From sequence record GQ981382: 64,000 bases of DNA; one strand, given 5' to 3'. This DNA is from Shigella phage SP18. The translations under genes and the position numbers were made by a program. Positions 6,146 to 31,364 of this stretch are shown piece by piece (the stretch's first letter is position 1; each line of letters starts with the position of its first letter). A model generated the notes under the pieces. It did no database searches. It was given only the letters and a program-made list of their open reading frames with translations, and was not told the DNA's origin.

Positions 6146-6573
6146 TGTTTATTATCCCTGATGATTACGAATTAACTCTTGAAAACATTGAAAGTGTTTC
6201 CGAAGAAGCTCAGGGACAATTTGATTCATTATCTGAAGCCTTAGAAAAAGACGATATAAATATTATTGTAGAAAACATGTTTGCAGCCGGTGAATACGAA
6301 AAAGCAACGGTTATCGGCGCTCTGAATGAAGGTGTTCAGCTTAACGAATTTATCGTTAAACATGTATCGTCTCGCGGTGAGTTAACCCGCACAAAAGACC
6401 GAGCTACTCGTAAGCGTAATGCTTTCCAAACAACTGGTCTTTCTAAAGCTAAACGTCGTCAAATTGCCCGTCTGGCTACTAAAACGAAAAGAGCAAACCC
6501 ATCTACGCAAATCAGAGCAGAGCGCAAGCGCAAAAAAGCTCGAGCTAAGCGTAAAGCATTCGGACTTGATTAA
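6145..6573 (+). CDS. 68: Prohead core protein gp68
   Basis: 142 aa with basic C-terminus, at the T4 gene 68 position and of similar size. Confidence 0.8.
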
Positions 6574-7211
6574 TGGAACAGAAACCAGAGTTACTAATCG
6601 AACACTGGGGTCAACCGGGCGAAATTAAAGATGGTGTACCGATGTTGGAATCTCATGATGGTTCCAGCAGCGGTTTAAAGCCAGGACTTTATATTGAAGG
6701 TATTTTCCTACAAGCTGAAGTTGTTAACCGTAATAAACGACTTTATCCTAAACATATTTTGGAAAAAGCCGTTGCGGACTATATCGCCGAACAGGTTGAA
6801 ACCAAGCAGTCTCTTGGAGAATTAAACCATCCACCTCGTGCAAACGTTGACCCTATGCAGGCGGCAATTATTATCGAGGACATGTGGTGGAAAGGGAATG
6901 ATGTATATGGCCGCGCGCGTATTATCGAAGGCGACCATGGCCCAGGTGATAAACTTGCTGCGAATATAAGAGCAGGTTGGATTCCTGGTGTATCTAGTCG
7001 TGGACTTGGTTCCTTGACTAAATCAGCAAAAGGTTATAGCATCGTTAATGAAGGTTTTAAATTGACGGTTGGAGTAGATGCAGTATGGGGGCCAAGTGCT
7101 CCGGACGCTTGGGTCAAACCAAAGCAGATTACAGAATCACAAACGGCAGTTGCCGATACCAGTGCCGATGACGCCTTTATGGCTCTCGCAGAGGCTTTAA
7201 AGACGTTATAA
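6573..7211 (+). CDS. 21: Prohead core protease gp21
   Basis: 212 aa, the T4 gp21 length; conserved blocks (LNHPPRANVDPMQAA, SSRGLGS); at the T4 position. Confidence 0.9.
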   Translation: MEQKPELLIEHWGQPGEIKDGVPMLESHDGSSSGLKPGLYIEGIFLQAEVVNRNKRLYPKHILEKAVADYIAEQVETKQSLGELNHPPRANVDPMQAAIIIEDMWWKGNDVYGRARIIEGDHGPGDKLAANIRAGWIPGVSSRGLGSLTKSAKGYSIVNEGFKLTVGVDAVWGPSAPDAWVKPKQITESQTAVADTSADDAFMALAEALKTL

Positions 7212-10060: not shown

Positions 10061-10085
10061 AAGTATATCACAAAAGGAAATAGCA

Positions 10086-11395: not shown

Positions 11396-12400
11396 TTCAC
11401 TAACTAATGCAATCCAAACATGTCTTAATGTTTCTCTTACATTTGCGATGAGTTGCTTTTTAACTTCAACAGGATTTTCCGTCAGAGACAATTCAAGACC
11501 TTCGCGCCCCGCTTCTTCCAGAATATCTTGGACTGTTAACCCCATTACCTTTCCAAAATCCTTCGGTGTTACTTCCCCAATTTTACTGATAACATTGTTG
11601 ATACGGTTAACAGTCACATAATCAGTGAAATTCCACAGTAAATCCATATCATTTTGGCTCAGAACCACTGCAGCCTTAATAGGCTTATCAGACTTTTTCT
11701 TTTCACTGAATTTAGAGTTCTTACATTTAATCGCCACACGCTCGCCGTTAGGTAACCAGGCAGGAACATCAGGTTTTAATACAAATCCTTCAGCAGTGAA
11801 TACTTTACCTTCCACCTTTGCATCAAAATCAGTGGTATTTGCTGTAGTCAATCCTGCGTTATCCACTGTAAAATTGTAATCAGGGACCACAGAATCCAGG
11901 TCATTAGGTAGCTTAATTAATTCTTCAAAACTACCTGTAGCCAGGCGCGGGGCAACTTTAAACTTATGAATAATACAAAAGGCTTCCATAAGTGTGTCAG
12001 TCAGGACGGATTCAGAGCCATCTTCCTTAGTAACGCGGATATCAAACACATAGAAATCTTTATCGCCGTAATTCACATTCTTCTGAATACCTGTACCAGC
12101 AAACTCACCATAAATCTGATATGCCTGGTAATTAATATCCTGCAAAAGTTTCTGCACAGATTTAATAGAATCTACGTAGTTCTTTAATACAATTTCATAA
12201 CCATAGAAATCTTCTGCAGGTAGGATAGGTCCAGTGCGTTTCGCGCATGTCACATTGTCTTGTTCAATAATTAATGAAAAATTGGTACCATGAATTTTCT
12301 CGCGGGCTACCCATTCACCGCTGGTGAAGCCTTGTAGGCGAATTTTTTCAATGAATTTGTTGTTATAGTGATTTTCAAGGCTGTTATATTTCTTAAACAT
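11393..12400 (-). CDS. rnlB: RNA ligase 2 (RnlB)
   Basis: 335 aa; near-identical in remembered blocks to T4 Rnl2 ([10 protein letters not shown] lysine-adenylyl motif, [22 protein letters not shown]). Confidence 0.92.
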
Positions 12401-12497
12401 ATTCTCTCACTTTTGATGTTATAAATATCATTATAAATTAGACCCACTATACTTTCTTTCTCTGAAAGGAATTAATAGTTGCAAAGGGTCTAGAACC

Positions 12498-12525
12498 ATT
12501 ATACCGCATTTTTATTTGAAGCAAA
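12498..12525 (-). promoter_or_regulatory. Middle-type promoter candidate upstream of rnlB
   Basis: Minus strand TTTGCTTC ... TATAAT upstream of the rnlB start. Confidence 0.45.
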
Positions 12526-12530
12526 AAGGG

Positions 12531-12794
12531 TCAGAATTTTACATACAGCATTGGCTTGGATTCTTGCCAATCATAATTCCAGGTAAAAGATGTAAATTTT
12601 TCTGCTCGCAGAAATTCAGATATCTTTGTGCGGTTTCCTTCTTCATACTCTTTTTCAGAAACTGCCATATTAACAGCATCTTTGCCATTTTCAGCGGCGG
12701 CAATAGCCACTTTGCGAAATATAGAAATAAAGTCATTTGCAACTTTATCTTGTGACTCTTTGGCTATTTGGCGTAGTTCTTCTGCGAATGTCAT
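12531..12794 (-). CDS. Hypothetical protein (24.2-like position)
   Basis: 87-aa ORF in the rnlB-hoc interval, co-oriented with flanking genes. Confidence 0.5.
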   Translation of the reverse strand: MTFAEELRQIAKESQDKVANDFISIFRKVAIAAAENGKDAVNMAVSEKEYEEGNRTKISEFLRAEKFTSFTWNYDWQESKPMLYVKF

Positions 12795-12994
12795 TTCTTC
12801 ACCTTTTTGTTATTCAAACGTTTACGATAAACAATCTTTTCTTTCGCTTTAAATTTAGCTTTAGCTTGCTCTACATCAACCCAGGCCTTTGCCATCTCTT
12901 TAGCAGTCCCGCCTAATACCTTGGCGATTTCAATAAATGTCATACCAGATTCATGCAGAAAATGTACTTTAACCTTATCCATAATGATTCTCAT
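12791..12994 (-). CDS. Hypothetical small basic protein (24.3-like position)
   Basis: 67-aa ORF whose stop overlaps the start of the downstream gene; Lys-rich C-terminus. Confidence 0.5.
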   Translation of the reverse strand: MRIIMDKVKVHFLHESGMTFIEIAKVLGGTAKEMAKAWVDVEQAKAKFKAKEKIVYRKRLNNKKVKK

Positions 12995-13084
12995 GTTGAG
13001 TTAGTGAAGCTATCTTAACATGGAATTTTTAACTTGTAAACAGGGTTTTTATGCCAGGCAACGCTTGCCCAGTACCATAAAAAA

Positions 13085-13111
13085 TAAAGGGACCTTCGGG
13101 TCCCTTTTTAA
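13085..13111 (-). terminator. Terminator hairpin downstream of hoc
   Basis: AAAGGGACC-TTCG-GGTCCCTTTT, same core as the 11366 hairpin. Confidence 0.65.
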
Positions 13112-13960
13112 TTAATAAACGTAATCGTATATAATACCAGCTTCTAAAGCGGTGCGATGAATAATTCGACCATTACGAGATTCTTGTACATCAACCTCTG
13201 GATAGTCGGTAATCATTTTTTGAAGGGTATATCGGTGCAAATAATATGGGCTATCTGGAGCATCAGTTTTCCAGTCTTGTCCAGCAAGAGTCATTTTCTG
13301 AATTTCGTCCATAACCCACCAACCACACCAGATATAAGCTGAATTACGAACTGGCAGCGGATGAACGTAAGGTAATTCGCCATCTGGAACTGGTGCGACT
13401 TTAGCCGTGACTGTTACATTACCAGTTTTTGTGACAGTCACCGGGTCATAATCAGTCGCCGAAACCACAACAGAAACTTCAATAACCTGTGAACCTTCAG
13501 CGCTTGTATCGATTACCAGAGTATCCGTGGTGCCAACTACAGGAGAACCGTCTTTCTTCCAAGAATAGGCAAAAGTAGCATCACCAGGTGCGCCAACTAC
13601 ATCCGCTTTAAAAGAAGCCGGAGTACCTTCCTGAACATTAATTGATTCTGGGGTTAATGTCACAGAAACATCAGACATAGTTTTATTCTGGATAGTTAAA
13701 GTCGTCTCAGCTTCAGCTGTTTCTGGTTCGCCGTCCGCTGGTGTAGTTGTTGCAACAACTTTAATAGTCTTGCTACCTGCTGGACCAACAGCAACATAAT
13801 CCATTGCAGCAGTCACAGAAGATTGAGGAACACCATCAACGGTCCAGACAAATGATTCGGTACCTTCAGCTGCAGCACCGGAACCGGTTGCAGTGAAATT
13901 GGTTGTTGCTCCAATAACGGCCGTAGCCGCCAAAGGAGCAATATCTACGGTATAAGCCAT
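13112..13960 (-). CDS. hoc: Hoc-like outer capsid protein with Ig-like repeats
   Basis: 282 aa with repeated Thr/Val-rich Ig-like segments and a conserved C-terminal capsid-binding-like region; T4 hoc position. Shorter than T4 Hoc (376 aa). Confidence 0.75.
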   Translation of the reverse strand: MAYTVDIAPLAATAVIGATTNFTATGSGAAAEGTESFVWTVDGVPQSSVTAAMDYVAVGPAGSKTIKVVATTTPADGEPETAEAETTLTIQNKTMSDVSVTLTPESINVQEGTPASFKADVVGAPGDATFAYSWKKDGSPVVGTTDTLVIDTSAEGSQVIEVSVVVSATDYDPVTVTKTGNVTVTAKVAPVPDGELPYVHPLPVRNSAYIWCGWWVMDEIQKMTLAGQDWKTDAPDSPYYLHRYTLQKMITDYPEVDVQESRNGRIIHRTALEAGIIYDYVY

Positions 13961-13969
13961 AATAAACCC

Positions 13970-14635
13970 TTATTTTAAAGTGACAAAAGATGAGTTACGA
14001 GTTTCTCGTACTAGAACAGACCCATTACGATTGATGTAATAAATCAAACTGAATAGAGTTTGGTGCGCGGTGGGATGTGGGAAAGCAGTTGGACGTTCTT
14101 TCCAATCTGGAGTCTCGGCAATCCACTGATAAATCCACCATGGAACAGTACAGAATCCAGGGTTCTTACCAATAAGCATTAAATTCGGGCTAAAGTTTTT
14201 TGGCAAATCAAATACAGGTTTTTCAGATTCGATAACCTTAGCAACAGCAGCTTCGAACTTTTCTTCGACAAAAGGAACGTCCTCTTCGACCAAAACAACT
14301 GGTTCTTCGATTTCAACAACTTCAACCTTTGCTTCGGTTGGAGCATCAAATAAGAGCTTAGCTTCTTCTTTAGCTGACTCATCGCCATCAAATTTAGCAC
14401 CTGACAATTCGTCATCGGCATCGATAAGGTCAGTGATGCTCAGTCCCTCATTATCATCAGGCATGGGCATGTCAGCAAATGCTTTAAGCCCTGCTTCCAG
14501 GTCAGCCAACATATTATCAAAGGTTTTTGTTTTCTTAACATCAACACCAAGTGATGCTGCATATTCGGCTAATTTTTCTTTGGCTTCTTTTTTCTCGAGG
14601 ACACGAATTTCCTCAATGTAGTTCTTGTCAATCAT
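13970..14635 (-). CDS. inh: Inh-like inhibitor of prohead protease
   Basis: 221 aa at the T4 inh position adjacent to hoc; acidic central region. Assignment is mostly by synteny. Confidence 0.55.
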   Translation of the reverse strand: MIDKNYIEEIRVLEKKEAKEKLAEYAASLGVDVKKTKTFDNMLADLEAGLKAFADMPMPDDNEGLSITDLIDADDELSGAKFDGDESAKEEAKLLFDAPTEAKVEVVEIEEPVVLVEEDVPFVEEKFEAAVAKVIESEKPVFDLPKNFSPNLMLIGKNPGFCTVPWWIYQWIAETPDWKERPTAFPHPTAHQTLFSLIYYINRNGSVLVRETRNSSFVTLK

Positions 14636-14653
14636 GATGAACCTCGGTTAGTG

Positions 14654-14661
14654 TATAAATA
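14654..14661 (+). promoter_or_regulatory. Late promoter motif TATAAATA upstream of uvsW
   Basis: Exact TATAAATA about 29 nt upstream of the uvsW ATG. Confidence 0.65.
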
Positions 14662-14689
14662 TAGATATATTTATTACCTTGGAATCATC

Positions 14690-16189
14690 ATGGATATTAA
14701 AATCAACTTTCTAAATTTTAGTCACGTGCATGTTGAATGTGAAGATGGAATCTTCTACGAACTCCGTGATTACTTCAGCTTCGAAGCTGAAAACTATCGC
14801 TTCAATCCAAAGTTCAAGCAGGGAGTTTGGGACGGACGAATCCGCCTCCTGGATTACAATCGTAAATTACCATACGGTTTGGTTAATCAAATTAAAAAGT
14901 TCGCTGACCAGTTTGGTTATTCATTCTGGATTGACCCGCAAATCACCGAGAAAGAAGAAATCTCTCGCGAAGAATTCGACAAATGGGTTGAGTCAAAAGA
15001 AATCTATTCAGGCAATACCAAGATAACGCCTCATTGGTATCAATCTGACGCCGTATATGACGGTCTGGTCAACAGAAGAAAGATTCTGAACTTACCTACG
15101 TCTGCAGGTAAAAGCCTCATCCAGGCGCTTCTGGCGCGATATTATCTCGAGAACTATGAAGGCAAGGTGCTTATCCTTGTTCCTACAACCGCGCTTGTTG
15201 ACCAGATGATTAATGACTTTGTTGATTATCGGCTTTTCCCTCGTGAAGCTTGTCTGGGTATTCGTTCCGGGACTAAACGCGATTCTGATGCGATGATTTA
15301 TGTATCGACTTATCAGACGGCTGTAAAACAACCTAAAGAATGGTTTGGCCAGTTTGGCCAGTTTATGAATGACGAATGCCACATGGCTACAGGTAAATCG
15401 ATTTCGACGGTTATCGAAGGCCTTACGAATTGCATGTTTAAATTTGGTCTGTCAGGTTCACTCCGTGATGGCAAAGCCAACCTTATGCAATATATGGGTC
15501 TGTTTGGTGATATCTTTAAACCAGTATCAACATCCAAATTGATGGAAGATGGCCAGGTTACTGACCTTAAAATAAATAGTATTTTCCTTCGTTACCCTGA
15601 TGAATTCACTGTTAAAATGAAAGGTAAAACTTATCAGGATGAAATTAAGGTAATTACAAAAGCTACACGCCGAAATAAATGGGTAACAAATCTTGCTCTC
15701 AAGCTTGCTAAAAAAGATGAAAACGTCTTTTTGATGTTTAAGAATATCGAGCACGGTAAATCGATGTTTGAAATGCTTAAGGAAGCTGGTCATGAGAAAG
15801 TGTATTATGTTTCCGGGGAAGTTGATACCGAAACCCGTAATGCTCTGAAGGTCATGGCAGAGAATGGAAAGGGAATTATTGTTGTAGCTTCATACGGTGT
15901 ATTCTCAACGGGGATTTCCGTTAAAAACCTCCATCATATTATTTTCGCTCACCCGGTCAAGTCAAAGGTAATTGTACTCCAGACAATTGGTCGTGTGCTT
16001 CGAAAACATGAATCCAAATCACAAGCAAACGTTTTTGATATCGTTGATGATATGGGTGTTAAACCTAAATCAGCAAATGCTAAAAAGAAATATGTTCATC
16101 TTAACTTTGCCCTAAAACATGGCCTTGAACGTATACAACGATATGCTGATGAACGTTTTAACTATGTAATTAAACAGGTGGAAATTTGA
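14690..16189 (+). CDS. uvsW: UvsW DNA helicase
   Basis: Matches T4 UvsW (NLPTSAGKS Walker A, MNDECH DEAH-like box, VASYGVFSTGISVKNLHH). Start taken at Met 14690 because the upstream in-frame GTG lies inside the TATAAATA motif. Confidence 0.93.
   Translation: MDIKINFLNFSHVHVECEDGIFYELRDYFSFEAENYRFNPKFKQGVWDGRIRLLDYNRKLPYGLVNQIKKFADQFGYSFWIDPQITEKEEISREEFDKWVESKEIYSGNTKITPHWYQSDAVYDGLVNRRKILNLPTSAGKSLIQALLARYYLENYEGKVLILVPTTALVDQMINDFVDYRLFPREACLGIRSGTKRDSDAMIYVSTYQTAVKQPKEWFGQFGQFMNDECHMATGKSISTVIEGLTNCMFKFGLSGSLRDGKANLMQYMGLFGDIFKPVSTSKLMEDGQVTDLKINSIFLRYPDEFTVKMKGKTYQDEIKVITKATRRNKWVTNLALKLAKKDENVFLMFKNIEHGKSMFEMLKEAGHEKVYYVSGEVDTETRNALKVMAENGKGIIVVASYGVFSTGISVKNLHHIIFAHPVKSKVIVLQTIGRVLRKHESKSQANVFDIVDDMGVKPKSANAKKKYVHLNFALKHGLERIQRYADERFNYVIKQVEI
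16167..16185 (+). repeat. 19-bp direct repeat, left copy (uvsW 3' end)
   Basis: TAATTAAACAGGTGGAAAT, identical to 16859-16877; the two copies bracket the HNH endonuclease gene. Confidence 0.85.
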
Positions 16190-16881
16190 ATTATCAAAAA
16201 ATATATGATGATTTAATTGGGAGTCGAAAGGCTTCCAAACCGATTGGATACACGGAATCTCACCATATCATTCCAGAATGTATGGGTGGACCTGATACAC
16301 AAGAAAACAGAGTCAACCTTACTCCGGAAGAACATTTCGTTGCGCATAAATTATTGGCCAAAATTCATCCTAATCATTACGGTCTTATAAAGGCCGTCAT
16401 TGCTATGGGTATGAGCTCTCGAACACATCAACGACAATTCAATAAATCGTATGGATGGGAGCGTAGACAAATGTCAGTTCTTCAAACTGGTGAAGGCAAT
16501 CCTTTTTATGGTAAACACCATACTGAAGAACATAAAGAATATATGAGCCAATTATTAAAGGGTCGCAAAATAACTTGGGCTGATAAAATATCCGCGACAA
16601 AGAAAGCGAATCCGTATAAATACTCTCAAGCACAATGTCAAGCTATATCTGAAAGAAATAAAGGTGAAGGTAATTGGATGTATGGTAAATCACATACACC
16701 AGAAGCATCAAAGAAAATTTCAGATAAAGCAAAAGAACGTTATAAGGACCCATCCAAAAATCCTGCCGCTAAGAAAGTGGTTTTAAACGGGATTGAATAT
16801 GGTTCGATGAAGCAAGCTTCTGTAGCAACGGGGCTTTCTTTATATAAAATCAGAAATTTAATTAAACAGGTGGAAATATAA
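16186..16881 (+). CDS. HNH homing endonuclease (mob-like), free-standing
   Basis: ESHHIIPECMGGPDTQENRVNLTPEEH HNH core followed by repeated NUMOD-like G-x-x-H-T/S-x-E units; TTG start overlapping the uvsW stop; 19-bp direct repeat at both junctions. Confidence 0.8.
   Translation: MNYQKIYDDLIGSRKASKPIGYTESHHIIPECMGGPDTQENRVNLTPEEHFVAHKLLAKIHPNHYGLIKAVIAMGMSSRTHQRQFNKSYGWERRQMSVLQTGEGNPFYGKHHTEEHKEYMSQLLKGRKITWADKISATKKANPYKYSQAQCQAISERNKGEGNWMYGKSHTPEASKKISDKAKERYKDPSKNPAAKKVVLNGIEYGSMKQASVATGLSLYKIRNLIKQVEI
16859..16877 (+). repeat. 19-bp direct repeat, right copy (HNH gene 3' end)
   Basis: TAATTAAACAGGTGGAAAT, identical to 16167-16185; both encode a C-terminal IKQVEI. Confidence 0.85.
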
Positions 16882-23398: not shown

Positions 23399-24487
23399 AT
23401 GAAAGTAAAAGAACTCGATATTGCGGGTTTATTTAACGGAGGTTCTAAGACCTCCGCTGGGCAGTCAAAAGCTGCCCAGACTCAAGCTACTATTGTGGCG
23501 CAATATCCAGCAGAACGAGCTTCCGGTAATGATTCTTCAGATGATATGCGAGTTAATGACCTTTATAAAAATGGTCTGTTATTCACGGCATACAATTTCA
23601 GTTCAAGAACATCTCCGGAATTACGCTCAGACAGGTCAAGCCAATTGACTTCATTAAAGAAAGTTTCCAATGGCGCTTCATTTAACCCGGTTAAAAGTTT
23701 AACATCTTTTGCTAAATCGAAATTAACCGGCGCTGGCTCAACAGGTAAAAGTTTTGATTCAAACGCTGTTGCAAATATCCTGTTGCCTCGTTCGAAGTCT
23801 GATGTAGAATCCGTATCGCACCGATTCAACGATGTTGGTGAATCTCTTATTACGAAAGGGGGCGGCTCAGCTACAGGTATTCTTAGTAACATCGCATCGA
23901 CTGCAGTTTTCGGCGCACTCGAATCAGTTACAAATGGTGTAATGGCCGACCATGGTGAACAGATTTACACAACCGCGCGAAGCATGTATGCTGGTCCTGA
24001 TAACAGGACAAAAGTTTACACATGGGAAATGACTCCACGTTCGGCCCAGGACTTAATCCAGATAGTGAAGATATACGAGATTTTTAACTATTATTCCTAT
24101 GGAGAAACCGGCAAAAGTTCGTTTGCTTCCGAGCTGAAAGAAAAAATCGATACATGGTATAAATCCACCTTCAAAAAAGAAGCAATCGATAACTTTGACG
24201 GCAAGTTGCTCGGTGAAGAGATAACAAGCTTCCTAACGAACGTTCTGGTGGTCTCTAACCCTACTATCTGGTATATCCGCAACTTCGGCGATACAAGCTC
24301 GTACGATGGTCGTGGGGAGCTATTTGGGCCGTGTCAGATTCAGAGCATACGATTTGACAAATCACCGGATGGTCATTTCGGTGGATTAGCTATTGCTCCT
24401 AACCTACCATCGACTTTTGTGCTTGAAATCACTTTCCGTGAAATCATTACGCTTAACCGTGGCTCGTTATATGCGGAGGGTTTCTAA
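23399..24487 (+). CDS. 48: Baseplate tail tube cap gp48
   Basis: 362 aa; T4 gp48 size and position between 29 and 54. Confidence 0.85.
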   Translation: MKVKELDIAGLFNGGSKTSAGQSKAAQTQATIVAQYPAERASGNDSSDDMRVNDLYKNGLLFTAYNFSSRTSPELRSDRSSQLTSLKKVSNGASFNPVKSLTSFAKSKLTGAGSTGKSFDSNAVANILLPRSKSDVESVSHRFNDVGESLITKGGGSATGILSNIASTAVFGALESVTNGVMADHGEQIYTTARSMYAGPDNRTKVYTWEMTPRSAQDLIQIVKIYEIFNYYSYGETGKSSFASELKEKIDTWYKSTFKKEAIDNFDGKLLGEEITSFLTNVLVVSNPTIWYIRNFGDTSSYDGRGELFGPCQIQSIRFDKSPDGHFGGLAIAPNLPSTFVLEITFREIITLNRGSLYAEGF

Positions 24488-25431
24488 TGTTTACTTTACA
24501 AGAATTCCAAACGCAGGCGATTAATATCGACTTACAAAGGAATAACCTTTTTAGTGTGGTCTTCGCGACCGCACCTTCCTCTAAATCTCAGAATCTTCTG
24601 GACCAGTTTGGTGGCGCATTATTCAGCAACCTTCCTGTTAACTCAGATTGGTTCGGATTAACACAAGGTGACTTAACTCAAGGGATAACAACTCTTGTTA
24701 CTGCCGGAACACAAAAGCTTATTCGCAAATCAGGGATAAGCAAATATCTTATTGGGGCAATGAGTAACCGTGTTGTGCAATCATTATTAGGGGAATTTGA
24801 GGTTGGTACTTACCTGCTTGATTTCTTTAATATGGCTTATCCAACGGCTGGTCTATTAGTTCACTCTGTTAAGCTTCCGGATAACACATTGAACTACGAA
24901 ATGGACCTTAACCATAATGCGCCAAATATCAAGATAACAGGGAGAGAATATTCTCCGTTGGTATTGAGCTTTAGAATGGATTCAGAGGCGGGGAACTTCA
25001 GAGCATTTAACGATTGGGTTAACTCTGTACAGGACCCAGTTACCCAGCTAAGGGCTTTGCCTGAAGACGTTGAAGCTGATATTCAGGTTAACCTTCATTC
25101 GCGTAATGGGTTACCACATACGGTTGTTATGTTAACCGGTTGTGTTCCTGTAAGTGTATCAGCGCCTGAATTGAGCTATGAAGGGGATAATCAGATAGCT
25201 ACATTTGATGTAACTTTTGCTTATCGCGTTATGTCAACTGGTGCGGTGGGAAGAGCTGCAGCATTGGAATGGTTGGAAGATAAGGTTATTAAAGGTGTAT
25301 CTGGTATTAGTTCAGATAACAACTTGAACGCAGAAGTTGCCAAATTGAGTCGCTTGTCTGGTGCTCAATCTGGATTAACAAGTCTATACAATACGTTTAC
25401 TGGTTCTGGCGGAAGTCAACGTATATTATAA
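24487..25431 (+). CDS. 54: Baseplate tail tube initiator gp54
   Basis: 314 aa; T4 gp54 size and position; bidirectional UUCG hairpin terminator downstream. Confidence 0.85.
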   Translation: MFTLQEFQTQAINIDLQRNNLFSVVFATAPSSKSQNLLDQFGGALFSNLPVNSDWFGLTQGDLTQGITTLVTAGTQKLIRKSGISKYLIGAMSNRVVQSLLGEFEVGTYLLDFFNMAYPTAGLLVHSVKLPDNTLNYEMDLNHNAPNIKITGREYSPLVLSFRMDSEAGNFRAFNDWVNSVQDPVTQLRALPEDVEADIQVNLHSRNGLPHTVVMLTGCVPVSVSAPELSYEGDNQIATFDVTFAYRVMSTGAVGRAAALEWLEDKVIKGVSGISSDNNLNAEVAKLSRLSGAQSGLTSLYNTFTGSGGSQRIL

Positions 25432-25433
25432 AA

Positions 25434-25460
25434 AGAAAGGGACCGAAGGTCCCTTTTTAT
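25434..25460. terminator. Bidirectional terminator hairpin between gene 54 and the alt-side genes
   Basis: AAAGGGACC-GAAG-GTCCCTTTTT. Confidence 0.7.
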
Positions 25461-25747
25461 TTGCGGAATGAAATGAAACCTGCTGCAGTCATTACAACTT
25501 CTTTCTTAGCAAAGACTGTAATTGCAATTGGTGCTTCAGATTCAAGTTGCCCAGTTACTACACCATTAAAAATATTTTCTGTTTGTTCAGAATTTACAAA
25601 GTTTTCAACAGGGCGAAGGTCAAACTTCTTATCTTCGCCAAACACGCGCCGCAGTTCATTACCCACCGCGCTGTCAAACTCTTCTGAAGCCGGGATAACA
25701 TTCTCAACTACCAGTTCCTGGCCATTAAAGCGAAAAGATGATTTCAT
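25457..25747 (-). CDS. Hypothetical protein downstream of alt (alt.-1-like position)
   Basis: 96 aa from the internal Met (MKSSFRFNGQ), which has a GAGGA RBS; the longer ORF-track version would overlap the alt 3' end. Confidence 0.55.
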   Translation of the reverse strand: MKSSFRFNGQELVVENVIPASEEFDSAVGNELRRVFGEDKKFDLRPVENFVNSEQTENIFNGVVTGQLESEAPIAITVFAKKEVVMTAAGFISFRK

Positions 25748-25811
25748 TTTGTTTTCCTCATGTGCAATTGATATGAACATTGTATCGCACTTCCTTGTGC
25801 TTGTAAACCCC

Positions 25812-27872
25812 CTACGAAAGGAATTTAGGAGGAATAGCTTCCAAATTAATACAACTAGCAAGAATACCAAGACCTTGATTGACTTTCTTCGTTACCCCAG
25901 AGGATGCAAACGATGCAAAGTCAACAGATTCTACTGGCTCTTCTGTTTCCTCGCCCTGATAAACGACAAGCTCACCAGTTTCCATCAACACATCACCATC
26001 ATAGATAACTGCATTTTCATCCAGTTGGTCAGTGGTCTGGATATCAGCTTCCAGCATTTTGACGTTCGCGTTTCCTTTATACGAAGCATCCGTAATTTTG
26101 GTAATCTTAACTACAGTTCCACGTGGAAGAATAACTTCCTGCTCGGATGGGTTGCCTGACAATTCCCCAGGAACAATTACGTTAATTAAGTCTGCCCCAG
26201 AAATTTTCCAACCGACATGAATCATTGCGTTGTCCGGGTTTGCACCTGGGATATTTGGTAAAACAATTTCGTCATCAGCCTGGAAAGATGTCCCGTCGCG
26301 ATAGTCCTGATGAACTGCGGCCATAGCAACGTTCGCCACCCAGCCACCAAAGATAATTGGTTTAAATGATGTTGATACATAGTTCCTAAAATAGAATAAT
26401 TTCGACTGTTTAATTTTATTAAATGTAGGAACGTTTAAATATTGACCACGCCAAAGAGTTGTATTAGGTGGCAACTTATGTCCAATTTCAAAGGCCGAAT
26501 CCAATTCCTTAATTGTTTCGACAACTCTGTCTAGATTTAGGAATTCGGTGTCTTCTTCATAATAATTACCCATCAAATAATTATTAATATCGACATAGTT
26601 GGCTCCACAATAATCTGCAATTGCTTCACGCTGGCCATAATGGAAACGGTTGTCAGTATACCCTGCTGTGAAATTAAGAGTATTTTCTGATGCTTCTTCT
26701 GCAAAGTCTTTAACTGCAACACGAATGGCGCTTGTGTATTCTTCTTCCCAGAGCGTGGCTGCATAAGTGGCTGCATCCAGGTTAGGAGGAGCATCATTCA
26801 TTTTTCTTTCGATAAATGCGGCTTTGCGAAGGTTAAGAATCTCTGCACATGATTCGGCAAAAATCTGCATCTGCTTCATACTACCAACTGGAGCACGTTT
26901 AAGTTCGCGATGCATACGGTTAAAAATTGGGTCAGAGTCTTCAACACGAATTTCTTCTTTCCAAACACCATTTGCACGCATAGCCGTATCTGCTGCGCGC
27001 ATACGAGCCATAGTATTCGTTTCGGAAGGTCGAACAAAAATTTCCAGTTCTTCGTAATCATCGATAAGTTCTGCCGTAGCCGGTCGACTAAACTTAGCAG
27101 CTTCTGCATCAATTTCGTCCCAACCTTCTGGCACGGAATCACTTGGAGCGTACTGGGCTTGTGCAATAGCTCGGCGACTGATTTTAGTTTTCTGGGCAAC
27201 AGCAGCATCGGTCTTTTTGTTTGCTGCATCAATCAGAACTTCGGCTGCGATTTCTTGTTTGGAGACTTGTGCGCCTGTATCTTTATTAGTGAATACATCG
27301 CCGACTTTAGTTTCAACTTTTTGATATTTCTCAGGGACCGGTGGCATACCATCAACCGAAAGCAGGTCAACACCCTTTTTGTACATAATTACATAAGCGT
27401 TCTTTTTACCGAGGCCGGAAGCATTCGGAAGAACATGATAACGCCCGCTGGTTTTCATTTGAATCAGTCGATTCATAATACGAATAACAGCTTGGTCTTG
27501 CCCTTTCATCTTTTTGGATGGGAAACGGAACAAGACTACATCAGGTTTGCCTAGTTTAATGCTTTCCCAGACTGTAACAAAAATCAGGTTAATCGCATCA
27601 AGAGGTTTTTCACCTAGACCACCCTTCAGAGGAACAGCATGGCCATGTGAAGTCCCGGATAACAGGAATACCTCGGCAATTGCATCGCCACGTTTATATT
27701 GTTTAACTGTTTCTTTGCCCGTGAATTGCATCAAACGGGCCATAAGAGAATTGGTCCCAGGAACACCGAATTGCCAAACCTGCGGGACCTTGTATTTTGG
27801 ATTCATATTAATGACAGGATAACCGAAGGCTTCGATATATTTGTCAAAGAGTTCATTTAATTGTTCAGACAT
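25812..27872 (-). CDS. alt: Alt ADP-ribosyltransferase (packaged, modifies host RNA polymerase)
   Basis: 686 aa; N-terminus co-linear with T4 Alt; C-terminal ART motifs (YVDINNYL, FRNYVSTSF, EQEVILPRG = R-S-ExE signature). Confidence 0.9.
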   Translation of the reverse strand: MSEQLNELFDKYIEAFGYPVINMNPKYKVPQVWQFGVPGTNSLMARLMQFTGKETVKQYKRGDAIAEVFLLSGTSHGHAVPLKGGLGEKPLDAINLIFVTVWESIKLGKPDVVLFRFPSKKMKGQDQAVIRIMNRLIQMKTSGRYHVLPNASGLGKKNAYVIMYKKGVDLLSVDGMPPVPEKYQKVETKVGDVFTNKDTGAQVSKQEIAAEVLIDAANKKTDAAVAQKTKISRRAIAQAQYAPSDSVPEGWDEIDAEAAKFSRPATAELIDDYEELEIFVRPSETNTMARMRAADTAMRANGVWKEEIRVEDSDPIFNRMHRELKRAPVGSMKQMQIFAESCAEILNLRKAAFIERKMNDAPPNLDAATYAATLWEEEYTSAIRVAVKDFAEEASENTLNFTAGYTDNRFHYGQREAIADYCGANYVDINNYLMGNYYEEDTEFLNLDRVVETIKELDSAFEIGHKLPPNTTLWRGQYLNVPTFNKIKQSKLFYFRNYVSTSFKPIIFGGWVANVAMAAVHQDYRDGTSFQADDEIVLPNIPGANPDNAMIHVGWKISGADLINVIVPGELSGNPSEQEVILPRGTVVKITKITDASYKGNANVKMLEADIQTTDQLDENAVIYDGDVLMETGELVVYQGEETEEPVESVDFASFASSGVTKKVNQGLGILASCINLEAIPPKFLS

Positions 27873-27881
27873 TTTTAACCC

Positions 27882-29756
27882 TTAATTGAGAAGGTGTACA
27901 AGTTTTTCCATAGACAAATCATAAGAGATTCTGTCATATTTTTTCAAAAGCGAATTTGATTCGTCTATCTGGTCATTTTCTAAGATAGAGCATTCAACGA
28001 GAATGTATTTACCCATCGAACCCATCATGCCAGCTGTAGCACCATAGACTTTATCAATCTTAAGCATTGTTCCACGTGGAAGAATAACTTCGGTTTCAAC
28101 GGACCAGTTTGCCAGGTCACCAGGAATAACTACCTTGATATTTTCTGCACCTTTGATAATCATACCAATCTTGATTGTAGGTTTCGCCGAACCAGTTGCA
28201 CTTTTAATAGTTGCATCGATTGCCCCATCATCGATATCACTCGATAATGCATTTGGGTCAAGGTTCGCAGCGGTGTGGCCCATACGACCGAAAATATTTG
28301 GCGCCAGAGATGTACTCGCAAACATAGGAAGATACATCGTTTTATTTTTTATGGAATTAATTGCCATATCGGTTGGCATGACTTGAGCACGGTAGATGAT
28401 AGTTCCTTTTGGAAGCTTAACACCGTTTTCAAATACTTTATCCATATCGGAAATCATTTTGATTTCGCTTTCTTTTGCGTCAGCTTTCCCTAGCAGGAAA
28501 TTATTGATTGCAGTATATTTTCCGCGAGTATACGCCTTAATTGCTTCGGCCTGGTCTTCAGTTATTTCAGGGTTGTCGGAGATATGAAATAATGGTTGGA
28601 TGGCCTTGGTGTAAATTTCATCTGCGATAATACGAATAGCTTCTTTAGTCTTATCTTCGCGCGCCCAGGTCCCCACAATGGAGTCGTCAAGCAACATATC
28701 AGCAACTCTACGCAATGTATCAACAGGATTCTTTGAGGCCCGCAGGACGTTCGAAAACTCACTTATTTTGTGTTCCATGTCAACTTCTTTAAGAGCATTA
28801 AACACATCCATGGCTACACGAGTTTTTGTCTTATCTTCACCAACACCACCTTGTGCAACTAAATCAAAATAGTCTGCATACTCATCACCCGCACGGTCGA
28901 TTACTTTTATTGAAGCTTTAGCTATCTGACTTTCTCTGGCATCATCTGCTGAATGCACTGCGCTACTGGTCGAGAGTTTTGTATAAATCTCTTTGTGCTC
29001 TGGTGAGAATTTAGCAAGGCCAGTTGGTTCGTTCCCCGAATACAATGCGTTAATAGCTGCGCGTTTAGAAAACTTGGTTTTAACAACAACTGCCTGGTCT
29101 GTACGTTTTTCTTCAACCTTTGCAATAGAGGCCGCAATAGCTTCATTCTTGGTAACAGTTTCGCCGGTGGCTTTGTCTACATAAACATCACCGACTTTCG
29201 ATTCCACTTTTGTGTACAATTCGGTATTGATGCCAGGAATTCCGGCGATAGATTCAATTGGTTTGGATTTACGATAAATCAATACGTAAGTATGTTTACC
29301 CGTGTACTGATACATATCATCCAGAACTTTGAACTGACCGCCGGCACGGGCCATAATAAGCCGAGCAAGAACACGCTGAATAGTTCGTTCTTGTCCCTTC
29401 ATTTTGCGGGTCGGGAAGCGGAACATAATTGCATCCATTTTCATCAGTTTTACTTGTTCGTAAACTACATCAAAAATGGATTTAATTGCTCCAATCGGGT
29501 TATCACCAAGACCACCTTTAAGAATAGCTGGAGTACCGTTTGAATTTAATGACATCAAAATAACGTGTGCATACTTATCGCCAGTTTTGACCTGTTTAAT
29601 AGCATCGCCTTCGGATGCGTAAGACACCATACGAGCAATAAGATTATCATTCCCCGGGACCTGGATATTCCAAATCTGTGGAACTTTTGACTTTGAAAGG
29701 TTAATGGCCGGGATATTAGATTCCCCTTCAAAAACCTCTGACAATAATTCGGTCAT
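27882..29756 (-). CDS. Alt-like ADP-ribosyltransferase, second paralogue
   Basis: 624 aa; same architecture with independent ART motifs (YTAINNFL, MFASTSLAP, ETEVILPRG) and shared central block (TELYTKVESKVGDVYVDKATG). Confidence 0.88.
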   Translation of the reverse strand: MTELLSEVFEGESNIPAINLSKSKVPQIWNIQVPGNDNLIARMVSYASEGDAIKQVKTGDKYAHVILMSLNSNGTPAILKGGLGDNPIGAIKSIFDVVYEQVKLMKMDAIMFRFPTRKMKGQERTIQRVLARLIMARAGGQFKVLDDMYQYTGKHTYVLIYRKSKPIESIAGIPGINTELYTKVESKVGDVYVDKATGETVTKNEAIAASIAKVEEKRTDQAVVVKTKFSKRAAINALYSGNEPTGLAKFSPEHKEIYTKLSTSSAVHSADDARESQIAKASIKVIDRAGDEYADYFDLVAQGGVGEDKTKTRVAMDVFNALKEVDMEHKISEFSNVLRASKNPVDTLRRVADMLLDDSIVGTWAREDKTKEAIRIIADEIYTKAIQPLFHISDNPEITEDQAEAIKAYTRGKYTAINNFLLGKADAKESEIKMISDMDKVFENGVKLPKGTIIYRAQVMPTDMAINSIKNKTMYLPMFASTSLAPNIFGRMGHTAANLDPNALSSDIDDGAIDATIKSATGSAKPTIKIGMIIKGAENIKVVIPGDLANWSVETEVILPRGTMLKIDKVYGATAGMMGSMGKYILVECSILENDQIDESNSLLKKYDRISYDLSMEKLVHLLN

Positions 29757-29792
29757 ATTGTTTTCCTTATAAAATATGATGTATTTATACGA

Positions 29793-29815
29793 AAAAGGGC
29801 CGAAGCCCTTTTGTT
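29793..29815 (-). terminator. Terminator hairpin downstream of DNA ligase
   Basis: AAGGGC-CGAA-GCCCTT flanked by A/T runs. Confidence 0.6.
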
Positions 29816-31355
29816 ATTTTAATCCAGTCTTTGACCAGTCGCCAAATACATCTTCGAATGTGTCTGCATGGTCTTTATCGAAACGGAACCCTTTGATAAT
29901 CGGCAGGAACAATGCAACCGTATTATCTTTACGAGTCTCGGAAGTCACCCAACCATTACATTCACAGTCAGCAATCATTCCAACCAATTCACCTTTACGA
30001 GCTTTAACCATCAAGGCTTCACGGTCCAGTTCGTGACGTTCATCAATCGGAATAGAAACCCATTTTTTGGTTTTCTTATCTTTCACTTGAGTTGTGTCTT
30101 TAAAACCAGACCCACAGTTATTTGTAATCTTGCCACAAGAAGAACGAAGCACAACACCGCCAATTTTATCTGGGTCTTTATCGTGCTCGTAATATCCAAT
30201 GATTTCCATTGCAATGTCAATTACTTCTTTGAACTTATACAAGTTCTTTGAGCGCTTGTTTTCCCAAATCGATGCCATATTCTTAAGGATAATACCTTCA
30301 AGACCTTCATCAACATATTTCTTATAGATAACTTTCGCTTCATCGAGATTGTTAACAACATGGTTTTCAATCAGAATCATGCGGTCGAAACCATGCAGCA
30401 CCACATTATCTGCAATCATCTTTTCCAGAACAGCAAAACGCACATCGTATTTCAACGGATTGAGAATCTTAACATCAGAATAGACTTCAATCAGCGGAAC
30501 ATAATCCCAAACCTGGAATTTCATGCAAGAAGCTTCTGCTGCAGAAATAGTTCCTTTCAATGATTTGTTTGCCAGACCATTTGAAAAGGTTCTTGATTCC
30601 GCGAATTCTGTGAATTCTTTTGCCTTACTAAGCTCAGGCATATCGTCAAAAAGGAAGCTCAAACCATCATTCTGGGGAGCTATTTTCTGTTCATGATATA
30701 CTAACTCGCCGTCAATCAAAACGCCCTCAGGATGTCTCTCACGCGCTTCACGGGTAGCTTCAATCAATTCCTTTTTAAGGAGGTCAAGCTTGAGGTATTC
30801 GTTGCCAGCTCGGGATAACAATCGAACATCATCCAACTCATCGCCACGAACTTCTGCAAAACACCGAGCGCCGTCGGCTTTCAATTGCGCAAAGGCCGGG
30901 AACTTAATGTTCTTGGCAATACCGGCTTCATCATAGGAAGAAGCGAGCATCTGCGGTTGTTCAGGAATTAAACCTTTCCAAACCTTATTTGCAATTGATA
31001 CGGATGCCCCGCATTCCAGGTCACGCATCATAACACGCCGCAGGACTTCAACATCTGCTTTTTTACCATCAGCAATATAGCCAGATAATTCCTCGATTGC
31101 AGCATTACCTGTTAATTTACGAGAGGCTAATGTGAATTCAATAAAGTCAAGCATATCATCGATATTCAGCATACCAAAGCTTTGAGTCGTTGTCCCAGGT
31201 TTTGGCCATTTCTTAATATAGAACTGGATGCCTTTGGAATATGTCAAACGATACACACGTTTGAGGGTTTCATTGTCAGAATACGATTCCAGAATAGCTT
31301 GTTTCTCTTTAGTAGAATCGGTTGCAGCAATTTCATTTAAAATATCTAAAATCAT
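29814..31355 (-). CDS. 30: ATP-dependent DNA ligase gp30
   Basis: KADGAR adenylation motif and T4 ligase-like blocks (LEGIILKN, KFQVWDYVPL); start at the ATG with AAGAGGTG RBS. Confidence 0.93.
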   Translation of the reverse strand: MILDILNEIAATDSTKEKQAILESYSDNETLKRVYRLTYSKGIQFYIKKWPKPGTTTQSFGMLNIDDMLDFIEFTLASRKLTGNAAIEELSGYIADGKKADVEVLRRVMMRDLECGASVSIANKVWKGLIPEQPQMLASSYDEAGIAKNIKFPAFAQLKADGARCFAEVRGDELDDVRLLSRAGNEYLKLDLLKKELIEATREARERHPEGVLIDGELVYHEQKIAPQNDGLSFLFDDMPELSKAKEFTEFAESRTFSNGLANKSLKGTISAAEASCMKFQVWDYVPLIEVYSDVKILNPLKYDVRFAVLEKMIADNVVLHGFDRMILIENHVVNNLDEAKVIYKKYVDEGLEGIILKNMASIWENKRSKNLYKFKEVIDIAMEIIGYYEHDKDPDKIGGVVLRSSCGKITNNCGSGFKDTTQVKDKKTKKWVSIPIDERHELDREALMVKARKGELVGMIADCECNGWVTSETRKDNTVALFLPIIKGFRFDKDHADTFEDVFGDWSKTGLK

Positions 31356-31364
31356 AATCACCTC

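What the first reader, a model, noticed from the sequence alone, without database searches (positions are those of the whole stretch)
25812..29756. Tandem duplication of Alt-type ADP-ribosyltransferases
Two full-length Alt-like proteins (686 and 624 aa) are encoded head-to-tail. Both retain the R-S-ExE catalytic signature (STS plus EQEVILPRG or ETEVILPRG) and share internal blocks but have diverged N-termini and central regions. T4 carries a single alt, so the pair may have diverged toward different targets (host RNA polymerase versus other host or defence proteins).
Basis: partly seen in the sequence, partly recalled or inferred. Interest (0 to 1): 0.5.

Follow-up and report, generated by a model that had tools for sequence, protein, structure and literature searches.

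The report
Tandem phage Alt ADP-ribosyltransferase paralogues
A T4-like coliphage (identical here to Shigella phage SP18) carries two adjacent, intact genes for capsid-delivered Alt-type ADP-ribosylating enzymes, but this is already annotated and common among T4 relatives, and the extra copy is an old, separately inherited paralogue, not a local duplication.

Summary
Two Alt-family ORFs lie head to tail on the minus strand: altA (25812-27872, 686 aa) and altB (27882-29756, 624 aa). Both keep the catalytic Arg / Ser-Thr-Ser / Glu-x-Glu residues.

It is not new. Both proteins are 100% identical to the adjacent Shigella phage SP18 proteins ADO19551/ADO19552, which are annotated as RNA polymerase ADP-ribosylases. 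Tandem alt copies were described in 2006 and 2014. They occur in Dhakavirus (2-3 annotated copies) and in T4's own genus (RB27). T4's small ORFs alt.-1 and alt.-2 are remnants of a second copy.

It is not an in-situ duplication:
- altA and altB never group together in trees (0/200 bootstraps).
- altB groups with WG01-type Dhakavirus gp201 (64% identity).
- altB is a precise 1,884-bp presence/absence cassette, found in 4 of about 52 close relatives.

Likely mechanism: one late promoter drives altB, altA and alt.-3. Both enzymes keep the two prohead-protease (gp21) cleavage motifs mapped in T4 Alt, so both are probably packaged, trimmed and injected with the DNA. altB has an unusually short C-terminal propeptide (25 vs a median of 62 residues). 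Its central domain cannot be aligned with altA's, which fits a different substrate range. That difference is untested.

Interest is low.

The parts
27882..29756 (-). altB: 624-aa Alt-family ADP-ribosyltransferase, the accessory, promoter-proximal copy. Predicted domains: N-terminal alpha/beta domain ~17-194, helical region ~203-443, ART domain ~454-591.
   Evidence: ORF. Pfam PF03496 and PHROG 802 matches. 100% identical to SP18 ADO19552.1. AlphaFold2 (AF2) model has pLDDT 80.9, and its ART domain matches C3, Vis, CDTa, iota and VIP2 toxins with Foldseek probability 1.0.
25812..27872 (-). altA: 686-aa Alt-family ADP-ribosyltransferase, the resident Gaprivervirus alt orthologue.
   Evidence: ORF. 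Pfam and PHROG matches. 97% identical to VR20 alt. 100% identical to SP18 ADO19551.1.
29782..29789 (-). T4-type late promoter box TATAAATA, 25 nt upstream of the altB ATG. It is the only such box on this strand between gene 30 and the terminator after alt.-3.
   Evidence: The same promoter, hairpin and Shine-Dalgarno (SD) block precedes the single alt of VR20.
29793..29812 (.). GC-rich hairpin (AAAAGGGCTTCGGCCCTTTT) immediately after the DNA ligase (gene 30) stop codon. It is a terminator-like element separating gene 30 from the alt late operon.
   Evidence: A terminator upstream of alt is reported as conserved in T4-like genomes (PMC1524935).
29764..29768 (-). Shine-Dalgarno AAGGA for altB.
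   Evidence: Read from the sequence.
27879..27884 (-). TAAGGG: the altB stop codon overlapping a Shine-Dalgarno-like sequence for altA. The 9-nt spacer contains no promoter, which implies co-transcription and possibly coupled translation.
   Evidence: Read from the sequence. No TATAAATA lies inside altB.
29736..29738 (-). altB Glu7 codon: predicted N-terminal prohead-protease site L-S-E|V.
   Evidence: Aligns with T4 Alt ITE-6, which was mapped by mass spectrometry (PMC5694885). The column is E in 68/68 sequences and [L/I]-x-E in 66/68. Model pLDDT is below 50 for residues 1-9.
27960..27962 (-). altB Glu599 codon: predicted C-terminal prohead-protease site I-D-E|S, leaving a 25-residue propeptide.
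   Evidence: Aligns with T4 Alt LTE-619. The column is E in 67/68. Model pLDDT is below 50 for residues 600-614.
27852..27854 (-). altA Glu7 codon: predicted N-terminal prohead-protease site L-N-E|L.
26016..26018 (-). altA Glu619 codon: predicted C-terminal prohead-protease site L-D-E|N, leaving a 67-residue acidic propeptide with the conserved YDGD...F-x-x-F...LASCI...P-x-KF tail.
28089..28391 (-). altB catalytic residues: R456 (28389-28391), S481-T-S (28308-28316), E554-x-E556 (28089-28097).
26136..26450 (-). altA catalytic residues: R475 (26448-26450), S500-T-S (26367-26375), E577-x-E579 (26136-26144).
25457..25747 (-). alt.-3 homologue (96 aa, function unknown), the last gene of the transcription unit.
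   Evidence: PHROG 1739, E 9e-42. Annotated alt.-3 in VR20, JS98 and RB27.
25436..25456 (-). Intrinsic terminator (AAAGGGACCTTCGGTCCCTTT followed by a T-run) ending the altB-altA-alt.-3 unit, between converging alt.-3 and gene 54.
6573..7211 (+). gp21-type head maturation protease. This is the enzyme expected to process both Alt proteins. It lies next to portal (4320-5894), scaffold (7244-8062) and major capsid (8084-9643) genes.
   Evidence: PHROG 207 'head maturation protease', E 2e-76, plus the neighbouring head-gene matches.

Best explanation
The locus encodes two paralogous, catalytically intact, arginine-specific mono-ADP-ribosyltransferases of the phage Alt family. They lie in one late transcription unit: terminator hairpin, late promoter TATAAATA, altB, altA, alt.-3, terminator.

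altA is the resident alt gene of this genus (Gaprivervirus). altB belongs to a rare, old Alt sub-lineage shared with WG01-type Dhakaviruses. It sits as a precise gene cassette between the alt promoter/ribosome-binding site and the altA start codon. It is an accessory paralogue segregating in the genus, not a product of local duplication.

Both proteins keep the N-terminal and C-terminal L/I-x-E motifs at which the T4 prohead protease gp21 trims Alt. The most likely course of events is as follows:
1. Both are made late in infection.
2. [quoted passage not shown]
3. Both are trimmed, to about 68.4 kDa (altA 8-619) and about 64.9 kDa (altB 8-599).
4. Both are ejected with the DNA into the next host.
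5. Both ADP-ribosylate host proteins within the first moments of infection.

Their central helical regions are unalignable, and the substrate-recognition (ARTT) loops before the ExE motif differ. They therefore probably modify overlapping but non-identical sets of host proteins.

Shown here: gene structure, family membership, intact catalytic residues, promoter and terminator motifs, conserved cleavage motifs, phylogeny, and cassette boundaries.
Inferred: late expression, packaging, processing, injection, enzymatic activity, and different targets.
For: Family and catalysis:
- Pfam PF03496 and PHROG 802 match both proteins.
- R/STS/ExE residues are intact, and invariant or near-invariant in 68 homologues.
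- The AF2 model of altB (pLDDT 80.9) has an ART domain matching C3, Vis, CDTa, iota and VIP2 toxins at Foldseek probability 1.0. A profile search of PDB sequences finds the same toxins.

Expression:
- There is a single TATAAATA at 29782-29789(-), directly after a hairpin.
- The altB-altA spacer is 9 nt, and a terminator follows alt.-3.
- The same control block drives the single alt in VR20.

Packaging and processing:
- T4 Alt is a prohead-core protein that is injected with the DNA (PMC9958956; PMC9026906).
- It is cleaved at ITE-6 and LTE-619 to 68.2 kDa (PMC5694885). The mass was reproduced here.
- The aligned motifs are LNE-7/LDE-619 in altA and LSE-7/IDE-599 in altB. They are conserved in 66/68 and 67/68 Alt proteins.
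- Both altB sites fall in low-confidence, presumably flexible, segments of the model.
- The gp21 homologue and the head genes are in the same window.

Not a local duplication:
- NJ bootstraps give altA+altB 0/200 and altB+WG01 gp201 200/200 on the ART domain.
- The cassette boundaries are exact against VR20.
- altB is present in 4 phage records at 95% identity or more, while about 52 records match the flanks at 90% or more.

Maintained as a gene:
- The ORF is intact in 15 cluster members.
- The carriers diverge by up to 6% in nucleotides with no disruption.
Against: - No experimental data exist for either protein. Packaging, processing, activity and targets are all inferred from T4 Alt, which is only 36% (altA) and 32% (altB) identical.
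- altB's C-terminal propeptide is only 25 residues. It lacks the TGELV...F-x-x-F...LAS-ID...P-x-KF motif conserved in nearly every other listed Alt. If that tail is the capsid-targeting or tethering signal, altB might not be packaged.
- The direction of the indel (gain versus loss) could not be decided. altB diverges among its carriers about as much as the flanking genes do (93.9-99.8% nucleotide identity).
- Too few substitutions were available for a meaningful dN/dS on altB.
Confidence: 0.64

Rival explanations
1. In-situ tandem duplication. An ancestral single alt duplicated within this phage lineage, and the copies then diverged toward different targets.
For: The genes are adjacent, on the same strand and 9 nt apart. 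They share the Alt architecture and 32% identity.
Against: - altA and altB never form a clade (0/200 bootstraps, both domains).
- altB's nearest relatives are in another genus: WG01 gp201 at 64% overall, in the same promoter-proximal position.
- Multi-copy alt arrays exist in Dhakavirus, Tequatrovirus (RB27), Aeromonas and Acinetobacter phages. The paralogues therefore predate these genera.
Confidence: 0.04
2. altB is not a virion protein. With its truncated C-terminal propeptide it escapes capsid incorporation. It would then act inside the cell that produces it, late in infection, like the non-packaged T4 enzymes ModA and ModB.
For: - altB and its WG01-type homologue are the only clusters among the ~120 listed that completely lack the conserved C-terminal tail.
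- altB has the shortest post-cleavage tail in the alignment, 25 residues against a median of 62.
- The role of Alt's two propeptides (targeting, tethering or activity control) is explicitly an open question (PMC5694885).
Against: - altB keeps the N-terminal propeptide motif L-S-E|V and the aligned C-terminal I-D-E|S motif.
- It keeps the conserved N-terminal domain at 60-72% identity to other Alt proteins.
- It is driven by a late promoter shared with altA.
- In T4, short N-terminal propeptides suffice to target internal proteins into the head (PMC9026906).
Confidence: 0.2
3. altB is a redundant or decaying passenger copy with no distinct function, on its way to loss as happened to the second alt of T4.
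For: - Most Gapriverviruses do without it.
- T4 shows that a second alt can decay to small ORFs.
- alt itself is non-essential in T4 (PMC9026906).
Against: - The ORF is intact with all catalytic residues in SP18, 212, P896, PSD2001, DCP80 and 12 metagenomic members.
- Carriers differ by up to 115 nucleotide changes with no frameshift or stop.
- Protein identity stays at 98.7% or more while nucleotide identity drops to 93.9%. Most changes are therefore synonymous, which points to purifying selection.
Confidence: 0.12

Closest known systems
Bacteriophage T4 Alt (gpAlt, 682 aa): a capsid-packaged NAD:arginine ADP-ribosyltransferase that modifies RNA polymerase alpha and other host proteins
   Same: - Same three-part architecture and the same R-S-ExE residues.
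- Same genomic slot between gene 30 (ligase) and alt.-3/gene 54.
- Late promoter preceded by a terminator.
- Both gp21 cleavage motifs at aligned positions.
   Different: - Only 36% (altA) and 32% (altB) identical, and the central region cannot be aligned.
- Neither is a close orthologue, so T4's specific targets cannot be transferred with confidence.
- altB has a 25-residue C-terminal propeptide instead of 63.
Tandem alt arrays of Dhakavirus (JS98 alt/altb; WG01 gp201-gp200-gp199; LHE83)
   Same: - Head-to-tail Alt paralogues downstream of gene 30.
- WG01 gp201 (631 aa) is the orthologue of altB. It is 64% identical, occupies the same promoter-proximal position and has the same short C-terminus.
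   Different: - Dhakaviruses carry 2-3 annotated copies (tblastn finds up to 4 places in some records), and their other copies belong to different sub-lineages.
- Here the partner is the Gaprivervirus-type altA, whose N-terminal domain is an outlier, at most 46% identical to other Alt N-domains.
RB27 alt + alt.-2 in Tequatrovirus, and the T4 alt.-1/alt.-2 remnants
   Same: Two full-length tandem Alt genes in T4's own genus. This shows that paired alt genes are ancestral and widespread (PMC1524935).
   Different: The RB27 second copy lies downstream of alt and belongs to a different sub-lineage. Its ART domain is 36% identical to altB and 41% to altA.
C3-like exoenzymes and the enzymatic components of binary toxins (C3bot, Vis, Certhrax, CDTa, iota Ia, VIP2): the R-S-E clade of bacterial ADP-ribosyltransferases
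   Same: Same catalytic fold and motifs. Foldseek probability is 1.0, and the profile search gives E down to 8.5e-7.
   Different: - 13-19% identity.
- These toxins are secreted and act on eukaryotic GTPases or actin.
- They have no Alt N-terminal domain and are not delivered in a capsid.
T4 ModA/ModB
   Same: They are also phage R-S-E ADP-ribosyltransferases encoded as a tandem paralogue pair with different substrates (PMC10468400 abstract; PMC5512222).
   Different: They are small single-domain enzymes. They are not packaged and sit in a different genomic location. Neither window protein has this architecture.

Membership tests
Phage Alt family (T4 gpAlt-like capsid ADP-ribosyltransferases) | C-terminal ADP-ribosyltransferase domain of the exoenzyme/VIP2 type (PF03496) | tested here: met
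   71.9 bits (altA) and 56.8 bits (altB) against a cutoff of 23.4. The altB model matches C3, Vis, CDTa, iota and VIP2.
Phage Alt family (T4 gpAlt-like capsid ADP-ribosyltransferases) | Catalytic Arg / Ser-Thr-Ser / Glu-x-Glu residues | tested here: met
   altA R475, S500-T-S, E577/E579. altB R456, S481-T-S, E554/E556. The columns are invariant or at least 67/68 conserved.
Phage Alt family (T4 gpAlt-like capsid ADP-ribosyltransferases) | Full-length architecture: conserved N-terminal ~235-aa domain, helical linker, ART domain and conserved C-terminal tail | tested here: met
   Met in full by altA (PHROG 802 positions 1-673 of 674). altB covers positions 1-618 of 674 and lacks most of the C-terminal tail.
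Phage Alt family (T4 gpAlt-like capsid ADP-ribosyltransferases) | Genomic position between DNA ligase (gene 30) and alt.-3 / baseplate gene 54 | tested here: met
   Ligase at 29814-31361, alt.-3 at 25457-25747, gp54 at 24487-25431.
Phage Alt family (T4 gpAlt-like capsid ADP-ribosyltransferases) | Late-gene expression signal (T4 late promoter TATAAATA) | tested here: met
   One box at 29782-29789(-) serves both genes. Only the motif is shown; its actual use was not tested.
Phage Alt family (T4 gpAlt-like capsid ADP-ribosyltransferases) | gp21 prohead-protease cleavage motifs (L/I-x-E) at both termini, as mapped in T4 Alt (ITE-6, LTE-619) | tested here: met
   altA LNE-7 and LDE-619. altB LSE-7 and IDE-599. 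Alignment and conservation. Cleavage itself is not testable here.
Phage Alt family (T4 gpAlt-like capsid ADP-ribosyltransferases) | Physical presence in the capsid and injection with the DNA | not testable with these tools
   Needs virion proteomics. No proteomic data for SP18-type phages were found in the literature searches.
Phage Alt family (T4 gpAlt-like capsid ADP-ribosyltransferases) | ADP-ribosylation of host RNA polymerase alpha and other host proteins | not testable with these tools
   Biochemical property. Only 32-36% identity to T4 Alt.
Recent in-situ tandem gene duplication | The two copies are each other's closest relatives within the lineage | tested here: not met
   altA+altB clade 0/200 bootstraps in both the N and ART domains. 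altB+WG01 gp201 200/200 on the ART domain.
ModA/ModB-type phage ADP-ribosyltransferases | Small single-domain enzyme of roughly 200 aa (size from general knowledge of T4, not checked here), not packaged, with no Alt N-terminal domain | tested here: not met
   Both proteins are over 620 aa and carry the Alt N-terminal domain.
GNAT acetyltransferase fold (for the Alt N-terminal domain) | Significant structural similarity to GNAT enzymes and an acyl-CoA binding motif | tested here: inconclusive
   [not shown]

The most novel reading that the evidence does not exclude
The alt slot of T-even-type phages may behave as a polymorphic-effector locus. A conserved N-terminal module, possibly a GNAT-like fold used for capsid loading or a second activity, would carry interchangeable helical-plus-ART 'warheads' that are swapped between phage genera.

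The Dhakavirus LHE83 chimera is an example. Its N-domain is 100% WG01 gp199-type, and its warhead is 80-97% identical to this window's altA.

On this reading, altB is a distinct injected effector with its own host target, perhaps a defence or translation factor. Its unusually short C-terminal propeptide would change how it is tethered or released in the capsid.
Probability: 0.3. Interest if true: 0.55.

Novelty: already known. Interest (0 to 1): 0.2.

Why it matters
As found, it matters little. The pair is already annotated in Shigella phage SP18 and its relatives, and alt duplications in T4-like phages were reported in 2006 and 2014.

The residual value is as a natural experiment. Almost isogenic Gapriverviruses exist with altB (SP18, 212, P896, PSD2001) and without it (VR20, TH54 and others), and they differ by a clean 1.9-kb cassette. 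This could show what a second injected ADP-ribosyltransferase adds, for example in host range, early takeover or counter-defence. It could also show what the C-terminal propeptide of Alt does, which the T4 head field has flagged as an open question.

Tried and rejected
- Recent sweep of the altB cassette. P896 and phage 212 have only 4-5 nucleotide differences in altB against 21-61 in altA. However, PSD2001 (96.8%) and DCP80 (93.9%) diverge in altB as much as in the flanks. The idea was dropped, and gain versus loss stays undecided.
- dN/dS on altB. There are too few substitutions between the closest carriers to be meaningful.
- Direct sequence search of altA against PDB chains found nothing at E 0.01 or better. 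Only the profile search and the fold search reached the toxin ADP-ribosyltransferases.
- The precomputed Pfam tag PF26846 attached to all homologues is not in the local Pfam copy, so its name could not be read.
- A deletion mechanism via short repeats at the cassette edges. The VR20 spacer (CCTATT) matches neither window spacer (AACAAT, GGGTTAAAA), so no simple junction repeat was identified.
- Literature searches for virion proteomics of phages with two Alt proteins found only single-Alt cases.
- Two paper searches failed because terms were shorter than three characters.

Full report
**1. What is in the sequence**

The ORF listing finds two long ORFs on the minus strand at exactly the reported coordinates.
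- 25812..27872 encodes 686 aa, called altA here.
- 27882..29756 encodes 624 aa, called altB here.
- They are 9 nt apart.

Upstream on that strand is the DNA ligase gene 30 (29814..31361). Downstream are an alt.-3 homologue (25457..25747) and, converging from the other strand, the baseplate genes 29, 48 and 54.

The two proteins align over their whole length at 32% identity, E 3e-86. Both pass Pfam PF03496 (ADP-ribosyltransferase exoenzyme) well above threshold. Both match PHROG 802 'Alt-like RNA polymerase ADP-ribosyltransferase' at E 5e-225 and 2e-199.

The catalytic residues are present in both.
- altA: R475, S500-T-S, E577-Q-E579.
- altB: R456, S481-T-S, E554-T-E556.

In a 68-sequence alignment of Alt homologues, the first Ser and both Glu are invariant and the Arg is present in 67/68. 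An AlphaFold2 model of altB (mean pLDDT 80.9, pTM 0.72) has a C-terminal ADP-ribosyltransferase (ART) domain that Foldseek matches to C3 exoenzymes, Vis, Certhrax, CDTa, iota Ia and VIP2 with probability 1.0. A profile search of PDB sequences finds the same toxins.

The observation therefore stands.

**2. Corrections to the description**

The N-termini are not the diverged part. Split by domain, altA versus altB is 42% identical over residues 8-235, 13% over the central helical region (effectively unalignable) and 32% over the ART domain.

altB also differs at the extreme C-terminus. Among the ~120 Alt clusters retrieved, altB and its WG01-type homologue are the only ones that completely lack the tail motif ...YDGDxLxETGELV...F-x-x-F...LAS-ID...P-x-KF. 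One 651-aa cluster, P0090, keeps only a degenerate version.

**3. Where the window comes from, and whether this is already known**

The locus is 99.4% identical to Escherichia phage 212. It is 93-98% identical to many Gapriverviruses, the VR7/VR20/SP18 group of T4-like coliphages.

Both proteins are exact matches to the adjacent Shigella phage SP18 proteins ADO19551.1 and ADO19552.1. GenBank annotates both as 'RNA polymerase ADP-ribosylase' and RefSeq as 'Alt-like RNA polymerase ADP-ribosyltransferase'.

Tandem alt copies are in the literature.
- Nolan et al. 2006 describe a full-length alt duplication in Aeromonas phage 44RR and note that T4 alt.-1 and alt.-2 are paralogous to alt (PMC1524935).
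- Jin et al. 2014 list Alt duplications in Ac42, JS98 and Bp7 (PMC4177764).

The annotated records agree.
- JS98 has two tandem alt genes and WG01 has three. tblastn finds four Alt-like places in LHE83 and 04086, although only two or three are annotated in the stretches read.
- RB27, in T4's own genus, has alt plus a full-length 'alt.-2'.

I checked T4 directly. Its 61-aa alt.-1 and 67-aa alt.-2 ORFs are 96% identical to residues 1-56 and 62-116 of RB27 alt.-2, and the flanking DNA is 96-97% identical. T4's 'single alt' is thus the result of decay of a second copy.

Across the phage collection, tblastn with altB finds 1,813 places in 1,220 records. In an evenly spaced sample of 60 records, 28 had two or more places (my count from the table).

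**4. This is not a local duplication**

Neighbour-joining trees with 200 bootstraps never join altA and altB (0/200 for both the N-terminal and ART domains). altB groups with WG01 gp201 and a metagenomic cluster in 200/200 (ART) and 147/200 (N) replicates.

WG01 gp201 is 64% identical to altB and has the same short C-terminus. It occupies the same promoter-proximal position, next to gene 30.

altB's N-terminal domain is of the type found in most enterobacterial T4-like phages (60-72% identity). altA's N-domain is an outlier, at most 46% identical to any non-Gaprivervirus Alt.

Compared with the single-alt relative VR20, the difference is an exact cassette. Homology runs through the ligase 3' end, the hairpin, the late promoter and the Shine-Dalgarno sequence to 6 nt before the start codon. 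It resumes precisely at the altA ATG.

In the phage collection altB occurs in only four records at 95% protein identity or more: 212, P896, PSD2001 and DCP80. About 52 records match the flanks at 90% or more. In the 5.8-billion-protein collection, the altB cluster has 15 members and its WG01-type sister cluster has 8, against 91 for the altA cluster.

I first thought altB had spread recently, because it has 4-5 nucleotide differences to P896 and 212 against 21-61 in altA. PSD2001 and DCP80, however, diverge in altB by 3.2% and 6.1%, like their flanks. Acquisition versus repeated loss therefore remains open.

Protein identity stays at 98.7% or more while nucleotide identity falls to 93.9%. This indicates purifying selection.

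**5. How it most likely works**

On the coding strand the order is as follows.
- Gene 30 stop codon.
- GC-rich hairpin (29793-29812).
- T4-type late promoter TATAAATA (29782-29789).
- AAGGA ribosome-binding site.
- altB.
- TAAGGG, a stop codon overlapping a Shine-Dalgarno-like sequence.
- altA.
- alt.-3.
- Intrinsic terminator (25436-25456).

There is no second late-promoter box, so the two enzymes are expected to be co-transcribed late in infection. That is when head components are made.

In T4, Alt is a component of the prohead core at about 40 copies. It is injected with the DNA and ADP-ribosylates RNA polymerase and other host proteins (PMC9958956; PMC9026906; PMC5512222).

Mass spectrometry showed that the T4 prohead protease gp21 cuts Alt at ITE-6 and at LTE-619. 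This removes 6 N-terminal and 63 C-terminal residues and gives a 68.2-kDa mature protein (PMC5694885). My calculation for T4 residues 7-619 gives 68.2 kDa.

In the alignment these sites correspond to LNE-7 and LDE-619 in altA and to LSE-7 and IDE-599 in altB. The motif [L/I]-x-E is present in 66/68 Alt proteins at the N-terminal site. At the C-terminal site, [L/I/V/M]-x-E is present in 67/68.

In the altB model both sites lie in segments with pLDDT below 50 (residues 1-9 and 600-614), as expected for protease-accessible linkers. The gp21 homologue, portal, scaffold and capsid genes are in the same window.

The best-supported mechanism is therefore that both proteins are loaded into the prohead, trimmed and delivered with the genome as arginine-specific (ExE-type) mono-ADP-ribosyltransferases. 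The predicted mature forms are altA 8-619 (68.4 kDa) and altB 8-599 (64.9 kDa).

Different substrate ranges are plausible but untested. The central region is unalignable, and the loops before the ExE motif differ (altA PGELSGNPSEQE, altB PGDLANWSVETE).

The main uncertainty is altB's C-terminal propeptide. At 25 residues it is the shortest in the alignment, against a median of 62. If that tail is what tethers Alt in the core, altB could be loaded differently or not at all. This is the strongest rival explanation.

**6. Additional observations**

Alt genes are modular. The Dhakavirus LHE83 protein WEY10270 has an N-terminal 135 residues 100% identical to WG01 gp199. From about residue 226 onward it is 80-97% identical to this window's altA. 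The bootstrap support changes accordingly, with ART 200/200 grouping with altA and N 0/200. This shows cross-genus exchange of the helical-plus-ART 'warhead' at the end of the conserved N-domain.

**7. Verdict**

The finding is real but ordinary and already annotated. It is wrong on origin and on rarity.

Novelty: already known. Interest: about 0.2.

The residual value lies in the clean with/without-altB phage pairs and in the short-propeptide variant. Both could be used to address the open question of what Alt's propeptides and second copies do.

Noticed in passing
L007 (T4) 6056-6441; L009 (RB27) 2537-4594: T4's small ORFs alt.-1 (61 aa) and alt.-2 (67 aa) are 96% identical to residues 1-56 and 62-116 of the intact 685-aa second Alt gene of RB27. 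T4 therefore carries the wreck of a second tandem alt. The paralogy was noted in 2006 (PMC1524935).
   Followed up: yes
L010 (LHE83) 7998-10043, compared with window 25812-27872: LHE83 protein WEY10270 is a chimera. Residues 1-135 are 100% identical to WG01 gp199. From about residue 226 onward it is 80-97% identical to this window's altA. This implies cross-genus swapping of the helical-plus-ART module at the N-domain boundary.
   Followed up: partly
[not shown]
   Followed up: partly
window 25779-25807 (-): A sigma-70/T4-early-like promoter match (TTTACA, 17 nt, TACAAT; the -35 element reads GTTTAC) lies between the altA stop and the alt.-3 start. alt.-3 may therefore also be transcribed on its own, early in infection.
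   Followed up: no
L012 (DCP80) 5001-7312: Phage DCP80 keeps altB intact, but its altA is annotated as a 141-aa fragment followed by unrelated genes (rIIA region). The record is only 140,978 bp. This is either a rearrangement/deletion or an assembly problem.
   Followed up: no
window 25812-27872 (-), residues 8-235: The N-terminal domain of the Gaprivervirus altA is an outlier. It is at most 46% identical to any other Alt N-domain, whereas most enterobacterial Alt N-domains, including altB's, are 60-72% identical to altB's.
   Followed up: partly
all homologues: Every homologue carries a precomputed Pfam tag PF26846.1 in addition to PF03496. That model is absent from the local Pfam copy, so its name could not be read. 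It probably covers the Alt N-terminal region.
   Followed up: no
window 1050-16622 (+): TATAAATA late-promoter boxes are strongly over-represented in the window: 22 found against 4.8 expected. They cluster on the plus strand across the head and tail gene block.
   Followed up: no
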